Shown here: positions 265 to 5,601 of the stretch, one piece after another
Layout: each line of letters begins with the position of its first letter
Numbering within the stretch: the first letter of the stretch is position 1
From: a virus
Taxonomy: Duplodnaviria; Heunggongvirae; Uroviricota; Caudoviricetes
IMG/VR virus record: IMGVR_UViG_3300015185_000041
Coordinates: 1-5,601 of that record
Length of the DNA stretch: 5,601 bases
Reading direction: 5' to 3' (one strand)
Notes under the pieces: generated by a model
Database searches by the model: none
What the model was told of the DNA's origin: nothing
Seen by the model: only the letters and a program-made list of their open reading frames with translations
Translations under genes and position numbers: made by a program

Positions 265-555
265 TTAACAGGTTTTGTTTGGATACTGTCTTCGTGAGTG
301 AACTACATTTACGATCTCGATGTTAGATGCTGTTACTCGGTAAAGTATTATGTAGTTAGGATGAGTCACTATCTCACGAAGACTTGGAACTCTTTCGCTC
401 GGTGGGTACAGATAAGGGTGTTCAGTAAGTGACAAAACTGATGTTTCAATGCGTATTTTTAGTCTACGTGCAGCGGGAGGGTTTTCCTTAGCAATATAGG
501 CTACGATCTGACGTAAATCATCACGTGCAGAAGGTAGCCATAAAATGGGCAGCAT
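265..555 (-). CDS. parE: ParE/RelE-superfamily type II toxin (96 aa)
   Basis: Size and motifs (LPILWLPSARDDL..., ...HPNYIILYRV..., ...IEIVNVVHSRRQYP) fit ParE-family toxins. Its ATG shares one base with the TAA stop of the upstream antitoxin ORF (TAATG), the typical antitoxin-then-toxin coupling. Confidence 0.75.
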   Translation of the reverse strand: MLPILWLPSARDDLRQIVAYIAKENPPAARRLKIRIETSVLSLTEHPYLYPPSERVPSLREIVTHPNYIILYRVTASNIEIVNVVHSRRQYPNKTC

Positions 556-746
556 TACTCACTCCTGTTCGTTGCAGCTAATTGAGCAATAAGGTTTTCC
601 ATTTCAGCCATTACTTCGTCATGTGGAATTGCAGGACGGGGATCTGAGAGGCTTGCTGCCACTTTGGTTCGCAACCATTCGTTATAGCTGTTTTCTTGTT
701 CGACTGTTTCAAATTCAGAAATTATCGGGGAAAGGGCTGTACTCAT
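555..746 (-). CDS. paaA: Small type II antitoxin (63 aa), PaaA/ParD-like
   Basis: 63-aa ORF directly upstream of and coupled to the ParE-like toxin. Strong RBS (GGAGG, about 7-nt spacer). It resembles, from memory, the PaaA antitoxins of PaaR-PaaA-ParE systems; the gene symbol is a recollection, not a search result. Confidence 0.6.
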   Translation of the reverse strand: MSTALSPIISEFETVEQENSYNEWLRTKVAASLSDPRPAIPHDEVMAEMENLIAQLAATNRSE

Positions 747-2063: not shown

Positions 2064-3041
2064 GTGTTCGGGGGTTTTATGAGCAGCAAGCTTCATGGTC
2101 TTGTCTGGGAAGGGTGCGCCTTCACCGGCATGATCTTATCCAGGGTGGCGGTTATGGCCCGTCTTGCAGACTACAGCAATGACGAGGGCGTGTCATGGCC
2201 TGCCATTGAAACTATCCGGCGTCAGATCGGTGCAAGAAGTGAATCCACAGTGAAATCGGCTATTGCAGAACTGGCGAAAGAGGGCTGGCTGACGAAGGAA
2301 GAGCGTAAGGTCGGTGGGCGTAATGTAAGCAATATCTATCGGCTTAATGTGGAAAAACTCGAAGCAGCTGCGGCGGCGGCGCGTGAGTCATATAAACCGA
2401 AAAGAAAAATTAGCCCGGCAAAAAATGACCCGTTAACAGTTGACCCGTCAAATATTGACCCCTCAACGGTTGACCCGTCAAATTTTGATGGATCAACTGT
2501 TGATAAAAAACTGCCGATTAGGGGGCCGATGATTGACCCCGATCCGTCAGTATTAAAACCTGATCCGTCAGATAAAAGATCTTCTTGTCCGGACGCTTCG
2601 CAACCGGACCCGCAGACGGCTGAACAGGATTTTTTAACCCGACACCCTGACGCGGTTGTGTTCAGTGCGAAAAAACGCCAGTGGGGAAGTCAGGAAGATT
2701 TGGTGTGCGCACAGTGGATCTGGGGACGAATCGTGAGTCTTTACGAGCAGGCGGCCAGCTATGATGGCGAGATCACTAGACCGAAAGAACCCAACTGGAC
2801 AGCATGGGCCAATGACGTTCGCACAATGCGGATGCTGGATGGCAGAACTCACAGACAAATTTGTGAAATGTTTGGGCGTCTCCAGCGGGATTCGTTCTGG
2901 GTAAAAAACATCATGAGTCCGGCAAAACTCCGGGAAAAATGGGATGAACTGGTTATCCGCCTGGGGCGTTCGCCTGCGCAGCGTTGCGTGAATCACATTT
3001 CTGAACCGGACACTGAAATTCCGCCGGGCTTCAGGGGGTAA
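2064..3041 (+). CDS. Replication initiator / replisome organizer: N-terminal winged-HTH, iteron-encoded linker, C-terminal DnaT-like domain (325 aa)
   Basis: The ORF opens at GTG 2064; ATG 2079 (MSSKLHG...) preceded by GGGGG is an alternative start. The repetitive linker (DPLTVDPSNIDPSTVDPSNFDGSTVD) is encoded by tandem DNA repeats, as ori-lambda lies inside O. The C-terminal tail ...VNHISEPDTEIPPGFRG closely matches the recalled E. coli DnaT tail ...VNTVSEPDSQIPPGFRG. Confidence 0.75.
   Translation: MFGGFMSSKLHGLVWEGCAFTGMILSRVAVMARLADYSNDEGVSWPAIETIRRQIGARSESTVKSAIAELAKEGWLTKEERKVGGRNVSNIYRLNVEKLEAAAAAARESYKPKRKISPAKNDPLTVDPSNIDPSTVDPSNFDGSTVDKKLPIRGPMIDPDPSVLKPDPSDKRSSCPDASQPDPQTAEQDFLTRHPDAVVFSAKKRQWGSQEDLVCAQWIWGRIVSLYEQAASYDGEITRPKEPNWTAWANDVRTMRMLDGRTHRQICEMFGRLQRDSFWVKNIMSPAKLREKWDELVIRLGRSPAQRCVNHISEPDTEIPPGFRG
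2426..2515. repeat. Putative replication-origin iterons: five to six tandem 15-bp repeats (core TTGAC-CC-GTCAA)
   Basis: Head-to-tail 15-mers: TGACCCGTTAACAGT, TGACCCGTCAAATAT, TGACCCCTCAACGGT, TGACCCGTCAAATTT, TGATGGATCAACTGT, then a degenerate TGATAAAAAACTGCC. Related CCGTCAG copies occur at about 2541-2570. An A-rich tract (about 2395-2425) flanks them on the left. Confidence 0.7.
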
Positions 3042-4370: not shown

Positions 4371-4539
4371 TTTTGGTTCAACTAAATATAACGCCAGTTT
4401 TGAAGAATGGCATGAACTGTTAATGGATTATGCAGAGTTACGCGGTGGAAGTGCCGCTGATGCTGAAGCATGGCGTGATGATTATGAAGCAGGAAAAACT
4501 CCGGTCGAAGCATATTGTGATGAGTGGGGCGATGAATGA
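4363..4539 (+). CDS. Hypothetical acidic small protein (58 aa, absent from the supplied ORF track)
   Basis: Hand translation from ATG 4363: MADFGSTKYNASFEEWHELLMDYAELRGGSAADAEAWRDDYEAGKTPVEAYCDEWGDE, stop TGA 4537-4539. Its start overlaps the upstream stop (ATGGCTGA) and its stop overlaps the next ATG (ATGA). Confidence 0.6.
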   Translation: MADFGSTKYNASFEEWHELLMDYAELRGGSAADAEAWRDDYEAGKTPVEAYCDEWGDE

Positions 4540-4793
4540 GCGAGGTTAATTATCAGGAAGGGCATGAAACGGCGGGGCAAGCAAAAACAGTGGCATGGCG
4601 ATATCGCTACGTGAAAAAAAAGGCGTTACGGACTTTCAGGGGAAGTAGTGGTCTGGTGACTGGAAATATGTACCGAAAAAAGAGGATTGTAACGACAGGC
4701 CGAACTATGAAATTCAGGCCTTATTCACTGCCCCGCCAGTCCCGGTTACATCAGAAGAACTGGTTAAAGCTGTGCACTTTTATGAACAACTAA
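4536..4793 (+). CDS. Hypothetical basic small protein (85 aa); reading frame uncertain, possibly disrupted
   Basis: ATG coupled to the upstream stop. The product is very basic and uses rare Arg codons, while a more protein-like frame with no start codon runs alongside at 4649-4852 (see findings). Confidence 0.35.
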   Translation: MSEVNYQEGHETAGQAKTVAWRYRYVKKKALRTFRGSSGLVTGNMYRKKRIVTTGRTMKFRPYSLPRQSRLHQKNWLKLCTFMNN

Positions 4794-5022
4794 AACGCGA
4801 AAATCCACCAGCATCCGGAAACCTGATTACAGATTCCCAGATAAGGCAATGAGCTACCTGGCGCAGAACGGGCTGATAAGTATGGGGAATGTTTTACGAT
4901 GAATATTTAGACTAAAGAGTTTGTAACGCTATGTAAGTGATTTTTTCTGGTTTAGATATTTATATGTCCGGCCAAATTGAGGTGTGTTTAAATGTAATTG
5001 CACATTGATTGTAGGAGGAATA

Positions 5023-5202
5023 ATGAAAAACGCATTGCAGTTTTTGTTTGTTGCGTTCTGGTTGTTCGTATCATGTATGCCCATCATCTTCACAGCAAGG
5101 TATATGGAAAAAGTTGATGTTTTGATATTAATATTTGGATATATAAATGCCCTTTTTTTAGGGGTGTTCATGGCGGTCATGTGCATTGAATACTGGCGGT
5201 AA
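5023..5202 (+). CDS. Small two-helix membrane protein (59 aa)
   Basis: ATG 5023 preceded by AGGAGG (5013-5018). Product MKNALQFLFVAFWLFVSCMPIIFTARYMEKVDVLILIFGYINALFLGVFMAVMCIEYWR has two hydrophobic helices. The track ORF 4984..5202 starts at an upstream GTG with no RBS. Confidence 0.6.
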   Translation: MKNALQFLFVAFWLFVSCMPIIFTARYMEKVDVLILIFGYINALFLGVFMAVMCIEYWR

Positions 5203-5257
5203 ATACAGCGAACGCCATTGGTTTAGTTGGATATTTACTGTGCCGGACAAAAACGGT

Positions 5258-5460
5258 TTGCGGGGAAATCTTAGTTAAGTAGAATGACTGCGGGTGCTTG
5301 AGGCTATCTGTCTCAGGCATGAACACCAAAAGGCAGATAGAGAAAAGCCCCAGTTAACATTACGCGTCCTGCAAGACGCTTAACATTAATCTGAGGCCAT
5401 ATCTATGCGACACATAGAGATTAGCCTCTTACGGACCGAAAGGTCAAGGAGAAGCAGGCT
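5258..5460 (+). promoter_or_regulatory. Hok mRNA leader: candidate promoter and structured 5' UTR
   Basis: Candidate promoter: -35 TTGCGG (5258-5263), 16-bp spacer, -10 TAGAAT (5280-5285). 10-bp stem at 5304-5313 paired with 5331-5340, 17-nt loop. Hairpin 5402-5418 sequesters the AUG of the short upstream ORF. Confidence 0.4.
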
Positions 5461-5464
5461 ATGA
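5405..5464 (+). CDS. Short upstream ORF (19 aa) coupled to hok; possible Mok analogue
   Basis: ATG 5405 with GAGG 8 nt upstream; TGA stop overlaps the hok ATG (ATGA). Product MRHIEISLLRTERSRRSRL. Confidence 0.3.
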   Translation: MRHIEISLLRTERSRRSRL

Positions 5465-5601
5465 AGCAGCAAAAGGCGATGTTAATCGCCCTGATCGTCA
5501 TCTGTTTAACCGTCATTGTGACGGCACTGGTAACGAGGAAAGACCTCTGCGAGGTACGAATCCGAACCGGCCAGACGGAGGTCGCTGTCTTCACAGCTTA
5601 C
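5461..5601 (+). CDS. hok: Hok/Gef-family type I toxin, truncated by the window edge
   Basis: MKQQKAMLIALIVICLTVIVTALVTRKDLCEVRIRTGQTEVAVFTAY is near-identical to recalled HokD/HokC sequences. RBS AAGGAG with 9-nt spacer. About four codons are missing beyond position 5601. Confidence 0.85.
   Translation, partial: MKQQKAMLIALIVICLTVIVTALVTRKDLCEVRIRTGQTEVAVFTAY

What the first reader, a model, noticed from the sequence alone, without database searches (positions are those of the whole stretch)
4860..5300. AT-rich islet encoding a 59-aa two-helix membrane protein immediately upstream of hok
Base composition drops sharply here (long runs above 70% A+T) compared with the neighbouring phage genes, suggesting separately acquired cargo. 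The only convincing gene is a 59-aa protein with two hydrophobic helices and a strong RBS. Small two-helix membrane proteins beside a membrane-depolarising Hok toxin could be a second toxin, an exclusion factor, or a modulator of Hok. I cannot place it in a known family.
Basis: partly seen in the sequence, partly recalled or inferred. Interest (0 to 1): 0.55.

Follow-up and report, generated by a model that had tools for sequence, protein, structure and literature searches.

The report
Unannotated small membrane protein beside hok
The 59-codon reading frame upstream of the hok toxin is very probably a real gene for a tiny two-helix membrane protein that current RefSeq annotation skips; it belongs to an E. 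coli/Shigella-only family of unknown function that has been inherited next to hok.

Summary
The ORF is real: 5023..5202 (+), 59 aa, with an AGGAGG Shine-Dalgarno 4 nt upstream and two predicted helices. The near-identical E. coli copies (islet in 1570 of 5426 complete genomes, all >=95% identical) cannot show that it codes. Within this clade substitutions are 9 non-synonymous to 1 synonymous, and an ORF of this length arises in 12.6% of shuffles.

An exhaustive HMMER search found a second clade, also 59 aa, 41% identical and gapless. It lies in a prophage remnant at ttcA in 1045 genomes. Between clades the ORF has no indels, against 7 gap openings in 187 flanking columns. Codon-position identity is pos2 > pos1 > pos3 and dN/dS is about 0.2. 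The BLOSUM62 score is 155, against 52±19 for random substitutions (0 of 20,000). The antisense ORF that phage records annotate ("hornerin") is broken in clade 2.

Clade 2 is also followed by hok, there a decayed 3' fragment, so the ORF-hok neighbourhood is ancestral. Most hok loci lack the ORF, and the ORF survives where hok is dead.

No Pfam, NCBIfam, PHROG, PADLOC, PDB or fold match was found, and PGAP called it in none of the RefSeq records inspected. Verdict: a genuine, uncharacterised small inner-membrane protein. Its function (Hok partner, toxin or exclusion factor) is untested. The composition argument for foreign origin is weak, since GC3 is normal.

The parts
4902..5022 (+). AT-rich upstream spacer / 5' untranslated region of the small gene
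   Evidence: It lies between the stop of the upstream (pseudo)gene at 4899-4901 and the ATG at 5023. It is 52% identical to clade 2 with 6 gap openings. No sigma-70 consensus promoter was found, and RNA folding does not differ from shuffles (z = -0.65).
5013..5018 (+). Shine-Dalgarno AGGAGG, 4 nt before the ATG
   Evidence: Read from the sequence. Clade 2 has a weaker AGGGA 7 nt before its ATG.
5023..5202 (+). ORF59: 59-aa two-helix membrane protein gene (MKNALQFLFVAFWLFVSCMPIIFTARYMEKVDVLILIFGYINALFLGVFMAVMCIEYWR)
   Evidence: A same-length homolog is 41% identical and aligns without gaps. dN/dS is about 0.2, there are no indels, and BLOSUM62 is 155 against 52±19 for random substitutions. The ORF is intact in 75 of 77 DNA-anchored copies. 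In clade 2 an in-frame stop lies 6 codons upstream of the ATG. This fixes the ATG as the shared start and makes the 72-aa GTG-start annotation (4984) an over-extension.
5151..5157 (+). T7 homopolymer inside ORF59, site of most frameshift variants
   Evidence: Variant proteins P0019, P0021 and P0024 diverge exactly here, and P0022, P0023 and P0025 within a few codons of it.
4929..5186 (-). Antisense 85-aa ORF, not a gene
   Evidence: Two phage records annotate it, as 'hornerin' or hypothetical. The same frame has 2 stops in clade 2. It has no SD (read) and no PHROG or PADLOC hit.
5203..5245 (+). Spacer between ORF59 and the hok/sok module; right edge of the optional islet
   Evidence: Prophages without the islet start matching at window 5245-5249. 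No terminator was found.
5258..5285 (+). Probable hok promoter (TTGCGG, 16 nt, TAGAAT)
   Evidence: Inferred from the sequence and its position just upstream of the start of the Rfam hok/sok model at 5292. It was not detected by the consensus scan.
5292..5463 (+). hok mRNA leader with the sok antisense target and mok (ATG 5405, TGA 5462-5464)
   Evidence: Rfam RF01794, 106.7 bits, E = 5e-25, full model length.
5461..5601 (+). hokD-type toxin gene, cut by the window end
   Evidence: PGAP annotates hokD (WP_000813254.1) at this position in identical genomes.

Best explanation
ORF59 (5023..5202, +) is a genuine protein-coding gene that PGAP called in none of the RefSeq records inspected. It encodes a 59-residue helical-hairpin inner-membrane protein. 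It is the founding member of an orphan family restricted to Escherichia and Shigella prophages, with two clades.

Shown: the reading frame, its length, its start and stop, and its hydrophobic pattern are preserved at 41% amino-acid identity. The gene sits directly upstream of a hok locus in both clades, so the pair descends from one ancestral cassette.

Inferred:
- The protein inserts with both termini in the cytoplasm. The N-terminus carries K2 (clade 1) or R2-K3 (clade 2), the loop is neutral to acidic, and the C-terminus is I-E-x-W-R.
- It acts through specific helix-helix contacts made by the residues conserved across clades (W13, S17-C18-x-P20-I-I, F38-G39-x-x-N42-A-L, E56-x-W58-R59), either with itself or with another membrane protein.
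- It has no consensus promoter or terminator of its own, and it points the same way as cro, cII, O and the nin-type genes. It is therefore most likely transcribed as part of the prophage early-right operon.
- Its function is most likely an accessory membrane role that does not depend on Hok, such as exclusion or modulation of a host envelope protein. The reasons are that most hok loci lack it and that it stays intact where hok is destroyed.
For: Coding:
- phmmer over 1.84 billion representative proteins found P0040, a 59-aa homolog. BLASTP gives 24/59 identities, 42/59 positives and 0 gaps, E = 4e-19.
- The DNA alignment has 0 gaps across 180 nt of ORF, against 6 gap openings in 141 upstream columns and 1 in 46 downstream columns.
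- Identity by codon position is 35/44/29 of 60. pS = 0.71 and pN = 0.33, so dN/dS is about 0.21. All other frames have stops or pS <= pN.
- Under random substitution at the same divergence, the ORF stays open in 2.7% of trials and also keeps its start and stop in 0.2%.
- BLOSUM62 is 155 against 52±19 for random substitutions (0 of 20,000). Amino-acid identity gives p = 0.012 and codon-position skew gives p = 0.018.
- ORF59 is intact in 75 of 77 DNA-anchored IMG/VR copies.

Membrane hairpin: AlphaFold helices at residues 2-24 and 31-58; hydropathy and charge distribution; the conserved columns listed above.

Context:
- The islet is in 1570 of 5426 complete genomes and clade 2 is in 1045.
- A 66-nt hok 3' fragment, 80% identical (E = 9e-14) with an in-frame stop, lies 54 nt after the clade-2 stop.
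- 62 of 63 clade-1 copies are followed by hok sequence. In 18 of them hok is displaced by an IS-linked rearrangement and ORF59 is still intact.
- hok modules without the islet abut ordinary phage genes.
- No promoter or terminator was found in 4700-5601.
Against: - Within clade 1 there is no signature of constraint. Of 10 variable sites in the ORF, 9 are non-synonymous, spread 4:2:4 over codon positions.
- Polymorphism density in the ORF (0.056 per nt) is only slightly below that of the spacers (0.07-0.10).
- Rare variants hit cross-clade-conserved positions as often as other positions (9/24 against 14/35).
- Frameshifted variants at the T7 run are not rare among database proteins.
- The deep evidence rests on a single pair of clades, and no third clade was found.
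- PGAP did not call the gene in any RefSeq record inspected.
- There is no expression evidence of any kind. The transcription route, the topology and the function are all inferred.
- The persistence of ORF59 beside dead hok copies may reflect only short elapsed time, since clade-2 copies are >=99% identical in 1027 of 1045 genomes.
Confidence: 0.6

Rival explanations
1. ORF59 is a dedicated partner of Hok. It would be a membrane protein that neutralises, potentiates or localises Hok, making this hok/sok locus a three-part system.
For: The ORF-hok adjacency is conserved in both clades despite 59% amino-acid divergence. 62 of 63 clade-1 copies sit directly upstream of hok sequence. Both proteins are small inner-membrane proteins. 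No terminator separates ORF59 from the hok promoter.
Against: Most hok places lack ORF59 (1640 islet places against 12182 places for a query that includes hok), and those hok modules are complete with mok and sok. ORF59 remains intact where hok is truncated (clade 2, 1045 genomes) or displaced by an IS-linked block (18 of 63 loci). Adjacency can be explained by common descent of a single segment.
Confidence: 0.15
2. ORF59 is itself a membrane-damaging toxin, similar to GhoT/OrtT or a type I toxin, forming a second addiction or abortive-infection module beside hok.
For: Its size (59 aa), two hydrophobic helices and strong SD resemble small membrane toxins. It has conserved intramembrane polar and small residues (S17, G39, N42) of the kind that drive oligomerisation. 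It lies in a prophage next to another toxin.
Against: No Pfam hit to Toxin_GhoT_OrtT, Hok_Gef or any other toxin family, even at E <= 10. No PADLOC hit. No antisense promoter or terminator, no Rfam antitoxin RNA, and no SD-sequestering structure beyond what shuffles give. No adjacent antitoxin-like ORF. An unregulated toxin with a consensus SD would be hard to maintain in about 1570 genomes.
Confidence: 0.12
3. The islet is non-coding spacer. ORF59 is a chance open frame whose hydrophobic look comes from the T- and G-rich strand composition.
For: An ORF of at least 59 codons arises in 12.6% of shuffles. AT skew is negative and GC skew positive here. Within clade 1 substitutions are 9 non-synonymous to 1 synonymous. 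PGAP omits it. Homologs are confined to one genus.
Against: The cross-clade comparison argues against it: same start, stop and length at 40% nucleotide divergence (p about 0.002 before counting indels), no indels against 7 gap openings in the flanks, and BLOSUM62 155 against 52±19 (0 of 20,000). Codon position 2 is the most conserved and position 3 the least.
Confidence: 0.1
4. The real gene is the antisense 85-aa ORF (4929..5186, -) that two phage records annotate.
For: It is the longest ORF in the islet. An any-start ORF of at least 85 codons occurs in only 2% of shuffles. It is annotated in ON470612 and PV340562.
Against: The same frame has 2 stops in clade 2. It has no SD, its sequence is low-complexity and polar, and it has no family hit. 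An open antisense frame is a common by-product of a real gene on the other strand.
Confidence: 0.02

Closest known systems
GhoT / OrtT small membrane toxins (Pfam Toxin_GhoT_OrtT), E. coli
   Same: About 57-59 residues, two predicted transmembrane helices joined by a short loop, no soluble domain, encoded in E. coli (the features of GhoT and OrtT are from my own knowledge).
   Different: No sequence relationship: the Pfam scan at E <= 10 returned nothing for clade 1 and only a sub-threshold DUF4212 hit for clade 2. There is no GhoS-like neighbour, and toxicity has not been tested.
Hok/Gef family toxin with mok and sok (the neighbouring locus)
   Same: A small hydrophobic inner-membrane protein in the same prophage segment, co-inherited with it.
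   Different: Hok has one transmembrane helix plus a periplasmic tail with conserved Cys (my own knowledge). Its expression is governed by mok, sok RNA and mRNA folding (RF01794 at 5292-5463). ORF59 has two helices, no Hok_Gef Pfam match and no associated RNA element.
Class II holins / pinholins of lambdoid phages (for example S21)
   Same: A two-helix hairpin membrane protein of 60-70 residues encoded by a lambdoid phage. One Foldseek viral hit was labelled 'Holin', but at E = 8.9.
   Different: ORF59 lies in the early region upstream of Q, not in the lysis cassette after Q. It has no dual-start motif and no charged C-terminal tail (only IEYWR). No holin family matched.
Small membrane superinfection-exclusion proteins of phages (T4 Imm, HK97 gp15, lambda/P22 Sie proteins)
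   Same: Prophage-borne small integral membrane proteins with accessory roles. This is the functional class I consider most plausible.
   Different: The resemblance is only by analogy, from my own knowledge. There is no sequence, profile or significant fold match. A promoter active in the lysogen, which such genes need, was not found.

Membership tests
Hok/Gef toxin family | Match to the Hok_Gef protein profile (single TM helix plus conserved periplasmic Cys region) | tested here: not met
   The Pfam scan at E <= 10 gave no hit for either clade. The model shows two helices.
Hok/Gef toxin family | Overlapping mok frame, antisense sok RNA and a structured leader | tested here: not met
   Rfam finds the sok/hok element only at 5292-5463, and nothing in 4500-5291. 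Folding of the ORF59 5' region does not differ from shuffles.
Type I toxin-antitoxin toxin (generic) | A cis- or trans-encoded antisense RNA with its own promoter and terminator overlapping or adjoining the toxin mRNA | tested here: inconclusive
   No promoter-like or terminator-like site on either strand in 4700-5601, and no Rfam family. However, the consensus scan also missed the hok promoter, so absence is weak evidence.
GhoT/OrtT membrane toxins | Match to the Pfam Toxin_GhoT_OrtT profile | tested here: not met
   No hit at E <= 10.
GhoT/OrtT membrane toxins | Growth arrest or membrane damage on expression | not testable with these tools
   Requires inducible expression in vivo.
Class II holin / pinholin | Encoded in the lysis cassette next to the endolysin and spanin genes, downstream of Q | tested here: not met
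   ORF59 lies upstream of hok, rem, DUF968, rusA and Q in identical prophages.
Class II holin / pinholin | Match to a holin profile (Pfam or PHROG) | tested here: not met
   Only phrog_2720 (E = 0.93) and phrog_6298 (E = 0.019, unknown function, clade 2 only) appeared.
Known anti-phage defence proteins (PADLOC-DB) | Match to any PADLOC model | tested here: not met
   No hit at E <= 10.
Genuine protein-coding gene (general criteria) | Frame, start and stop preserved, and amino-acid-level constraint between diverged homologs | tested here: met
Genuine protein-coding gene (general criteria) | Excess of synonymous over non-synonymous change among close relatives | tested here: not met
   9 non-synonymous to 1 synonymous within clade 1. 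No depletion of variants at conserved positions. Statistical power is low.
Genuine protein-coding gene (general criteria) | Evidence of transcription and translation | not testable with these tools
   No expression data are accessible. A literature search for the peptide returned nothing.

The most novel reading that the evidence does not exclude
ORF59 is a protein-level partner of Hok, either an intramembrane antidote or a potentiator. In that case the ancestral hok locus of these prophages was a three-component system (small hairpin protein, Hok and Sok RNA), and ORF59 survives as an orphan immunity gene where hok has decayed. This would resemble orphan antitoxins and immunity genes that protect against incoming toxin copies.
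Probability: 0.12. Interest if true: 0.75.

Novelty: new member of a known kind. Interest (0 to 1): 0.42.

Why it matters
The two clades are found in 1570 and 1045 of 5426 complete E. coli genomes, including O104:H4, ST131, ATCC 8739 and HS. Their overlap was not computed, but some lineages such as ST131 carry both. The gene is missing from RefSeq annotation in every record inspected and from every family library searched. It is absent from K-12, which probably explains why it was never studied.

It adds a well-supported candidate to the catalogue of bacterial small membrane proteins. Because it has been inherited beside hok for as long as the two clades have been diverging, it is also a concrete, cheap-to-test candidate for a protein that interacts with, or substitutes for, a classic type I toxin system.

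It also serves as a methodological reminder. Near-identical copies carried no coding signal. Only an exhaustive search that found a 41%-identical paralog settled the question.

Tried and rejected
- Pfam, NCBIfam, PHROGs and PADLOC with the single protein and with both clades gave nothing significant. The best hits were TIGR04104 at E = 0.2, DUF4212 at E = 0.032 and phrog_6298 at E = 0.019.
- A PDB sequence profile search gave no hits.
- Foldseek against BFVD and PDB gave no match better than E = 2. This is non-specific, as expected for a bare hairpin.
- Rfam finds only the hok/sok element.
- The promoter and terminator scan found nothing in 4700-5601.
- RNA folding of the 5' region, the 3' spacer and the antisense strand gave z-scores between -0.65 and +0.18.
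- Word-indexed homology searches, with the single sequence and with the two-clade profile, found no third clade.
- The species-representative genome scan found only Shigella flexneri (two loci) and a decayed E. coli copy, L086. I first took L086 for a 53%-identical homolog, but it is a frameshifted pseudogene.
- Within-clade population tests (variable-site class, density, position of rare variants) were uninformative or pointed toward neutrality.
- The ORF-length shuffle test was not significant.
- A literature search for the peptide string found nothing, and a search for hokD plus small membrane protein found nothing relevant.
- E. coli K-12 holds neither clade.

Full report
CONTEXT. The window is the immunity and early-right region of a lambdoid E. 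coli prophage. It holds a relE/parE-like toxin with its antitoxin (265-746, -), a cI-like repressor (764-1264, -), and cro-like, cII/YdaT-like, O-like and DUF977 genes followed by several small nin-type genes on the + strand. A hokD-type hok/sok locus lies at the 3' end. Rfam places the hok leader/sok element at 5292-5463 (RF01794, 106.7 bits). hok starts at 5461 and runs off the window. The stretch 4800-5601 is 99.9% identical to chromosomal prophages of many strains, including O104:H4.

THE OBSERVATION. The ORF exists at 5023..5202 (+), 59 aa, with AGGAGG at 5013-5018. The islet proper is 4902-5245. In this window that gene is a pseudogene: an intact 171-aa homolog maps to three different frames and about 44 residues are missing, and PGAP marks it 'frameshifted; internal stop'.

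The islet is 35.5% GC against 47-49% on either side. It contains 11 of the window's 31 50-nt windows with >=70% A+T, but other parts of the window are equally AT-rich. Within the ORF the low GC is confined to codon positions 1 and 2 (0.33, 0.27). GC3 is 0.50, the same as the neighbouring genes. So the composition largely reflects a hydrophobic protein plus ordinary AT-rich intergenic DNA, and does not by itself indicate foreign origin.

By length alone the ORF is unremarkable. 12.6% of dinucleotide shuffles of the islet contain an ATG ORF of at least 59 codons.

IS IT A GENE? CLOSE RELATIVES CANNOT TELL. The islet occurs in 1570 of 5426 complete E. coli genomes, always at >=95% identity. In every RefSeq record inspected PGAP leaves it unannotated. 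Two phage records instead annotate the antisense 85-aa ORF, as 'hornerin' or 'hypothetical protein'. Some GenBank submissions and UniProt list the + strand protein as hypothetical, 'putative membrane protein' or uncharacterised, often with a 72-aa GTG start.

Word-indexed protein searches found only E. coli and Shigella proteins more than 90% identical, plus many variants frameshifted at or near a T7 run (5151-5157) or truncated by insertions. One apparent 53%-identical copy (L086) turned out to be a decayed, frameshifted pseudogene.

I then took a sample anchored on an invariant upstream DNA word, so that it was not selected for an intact protein. In that sample 75 of 77 complete copies keep the 59-aa frame. 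At 3% divergence or less, however, this carries little weight. The substitutions give no coding signal. Of 10 variable sites in the ORF, 9 are non-synonymous, spread 4:2:4 over codon positions. Polymorphism density (0.056 per nt) is only slightly below that of the flanking spacers (0.07-0.10). Rare variants hit conserved and variable positions equally.

IS IT A GENE? A DIVERGED CLADE SAYS YES. An exhaustive phmmer scan of 1.84 billion representative proteins found P0040, also exactly 59 aa and 41% identical over the full length. BLASTP gives 24/59 identities, 42/59 positives, no gaps, E = 4e-19. Its common form, P0046, is indexed in 3751 blocks of the assembly collection. Its locus is present in 1045 of 5426 complete genomes, at >=99% identity in 1027 of them, and is again unannotated.

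The evidence from comparing the two clades is as follows:
- The two loci are about 52-60% identical across spacer, ORF and spacer. The ORF has no gaps in 180 nt, while the flanks need 7 gap openings in 187 columns.
- Identity by codon position is 35/44/29 of 60, that is pos2 > pos1 > pos3 (chi-square p = 0.018).
- pS = 0.71 and pN = 0.33, so dN/dS is about 0.2. Every other frame contains stops or has pS <= pN. The antisense 85-aa frame acquires two stops in clade 2.
- With 72 random substitutions the frame stays open in 2.7% of trials, and also keeps its start and stop in 0.2%.
- The observed BLOSUM62 score of 155 compares with 52±19 for random substitutions. None of 20,000 trials reached it.
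- In clade 2 an in-frame stop lies six codons before the ATG. The shared ATG (5023 here) is therefore the true start.

I conclude that ORF59 is a real protein-coding gene, with a probability of about 0.85-0.9. No third clade was found with the two-clade profile.

THE PROTEIN. AlphaFold, using a shallow alignment, gives a hairpin of two helices at residues 2-24 and 31-58 (mean pLDDT 71). Hydropathy agrees, with GRAVY 1.3-1.4. Basic residues sit at the N-terminus (K2, or R2-K3 in clade 2). The loop is neutral to acidic (RYMEKVD in clade 1, EYLTEAS in clade 2). The C-terminus is I-E-x-W-R. By the positive-inside rule this suggests an N-in/C-in topology, which is an inference.

Columns invariant across all seven aligned sequences include W13, S17, C18, P20, I21, I22, T24, F38, G39, N42, A43, L44, I55, E56, W58 and R59. 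Conserved small and polar residues inside both helices point to specific helix packing rather than a mere greasy peptide. This too is an inference.

No family, defence model, solved structure or significant fold neighbour matches.

RELATION TO HOK. The right edge of the islet is at 5245-5249. From that point on, many prophages that lack the islet (933W, Stx phages and others) match at 92-94% identity. In those phages the hok module directly follows an ordinary phage gene. The 802-nt query that includes hok matches 12182 places in 4938 genomes, whereas the islet matches 1640 places in 1570 genomes. Most hok loci therefore lack ORF59.

Conversely, 62 of 63 DNA-anchored clade-1 copies with enough downstream sequence are followed by hok sequence: 60 have the leader motif and 2 more have an intact hok CDS. 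In 18 of the 63, homology stops exactly at the hok ATG (5462) and an IS-linked block follows, as in ATCC 8739 and ECOR13 PhiR42_1. This probably represents one lineage event. ORF59 is intact in that lineage.

Clade 2 lies in a prophage remnant in the order ttcA, integrase fragment, about 700 nt, ORF, and further on uspF and ompN. Starting 54 nt after its stop is a 66-nt fragment 80% identical to hok codons 22-44 (E = 9e-14). The fragment has an in-frame stop and lacks the promoter, leader and start.

Maintenance of ORF59 does not require a working hok, and hok/sok clearly works without ORF59. I therefore rank an obligatory Hok partnership (0.15) below a Hok-independent accessory membrane function.

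EXPRESSION. No sigma-70 consensus promoter or intrinsic terminator is found anywhere in 4700-5601, although that scan also misses the hok promoter. The 5' region, the 3' spacer and the antisense strand fold no better than shuffles. This gives no support for type-I-toxin-style control. All surrounding genes point the same way. The simplest reading is transcription from the early-right operon on induction, possibly reading through into the hok locus. This is inferred and not shown.

COMPARISON WITH KNOWN SYSTEMS. ORF59 resembles GhoT/OrtT in size and in having two helices. It resembles class II holins in being a lambdoid two-helix hairpin, and small Sie/Imm-type exclusion proteins in being a prophage accessory membrane protein. 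It fails the testable membership criteria of each: profile match, genomic position and associated RNA elements (see the membership table). It is best filed as the first described member of an orphan small-membrane-protein family, within the known general kind of prophage-borne small membrane proteins.

VERDICT. The feature is real and was not annotated in any RefSeq record inspected. It is moderately interesting: a widespread but taxonomically narrow small-protein family with a suggestive and easily testable link to hok. Its function is unknown. The main unexplained point is the contrast between clear deep constraint and a neutral-looking, all-non-synonymous polymorphism pattern within clade 1.

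Noticed in passing
window 4536-4901 (+): The gene upstream of the islet is a pseudogene in this window. An intact 171-aa homolog (L089 2015-2530) maps to three different frames (4536-4643, 4616-4837, 4819-4899) and residues 101-144 are missing. One shift is near the A-run at about 4613-4620. PGAP flags it as 'frameshifted; internal stop' in identical genomes.
   Followed up: partly
window 5405-5464 (+): The mok frame here is only 19 codons long. It ends in a TGA (5462-5464) that overlaps the hok ATG (5461) as ATGA, an arrangement typical of termination-reinitiation coupling. In phage 933W the annotated mokW starts 57 nt upstream of hokW, which puts it in frame with hokW. A 1-nt difference therefore changes the mok-hok relationship.
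   Followed up: no
window 5447-5462; L218 (K-12 Qin), L087 (ATCC 8739), L003 (PhiR42_1): K-12 hokD retains only window 5447-5601 (the hok CDS plus 14 nt) directly after relE. ATCC 8739 and ECOR13 retain the islet and the hok leader/sok up to 5462, followed by IS, ydfW, flxA, ydfV and, as seen in PhiR42_1, relBE. The relBE-containing block thus appears to be inserted exactly at the hok start. This would explain both the relB-relE-hokD ('relBEF') operon and the missing mok/sok at K-12 hokD.
   Followed up: partly
window 5151-5157 (+): A T7 homopolymer inside ORF59 is where most frameshifted protein variants diverge, or within a few codons of it (P0019, P0021-P0025). Some of these variants come from complete genomes. 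They could be sequencing errors or real slippage.
   Followed up: partly
window 4929-5186 (-): An 85-aa antisense ORF is annotated as 'hornerin' or hypothetical protein in phage records ON470612 and PV340562. This is a mis-annotation, because the same frame has two stops in the diverged clade.
   Followed up: yes
L209 4234-4300 (and L210-L217): A prophage remnant at the ttcA (Rac-type) attachment site in 1045 complete E. coli genomes contains an integrase fragment, the clade-2 ORF59 paralog and a dead 3' fragment of hok. None of these is annotated by PGAP under the match.
   Followed up: yes
window ~2428-2510 (+), inside the O-like gene 2064-3041: A run of direct repeats of the type (t)tgacccgtcaaat, which look like origin iterons embedded in the replication-initiator gene, as in lambda O. 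This was seen by eye.
   Followed up: no
window 265-746 (-): A RelE/ParE-like toxin (96 aa) and its overlapping upstream antitoxin-like ORF (63 aa) sit just beyond the end of the cI-like repressor gene, on the same strand. With hok/sok this makes a second addiction-type module in this 5.6-kb stretch. The assignment was made by eye and was not profile-tested.
   Followed up: no
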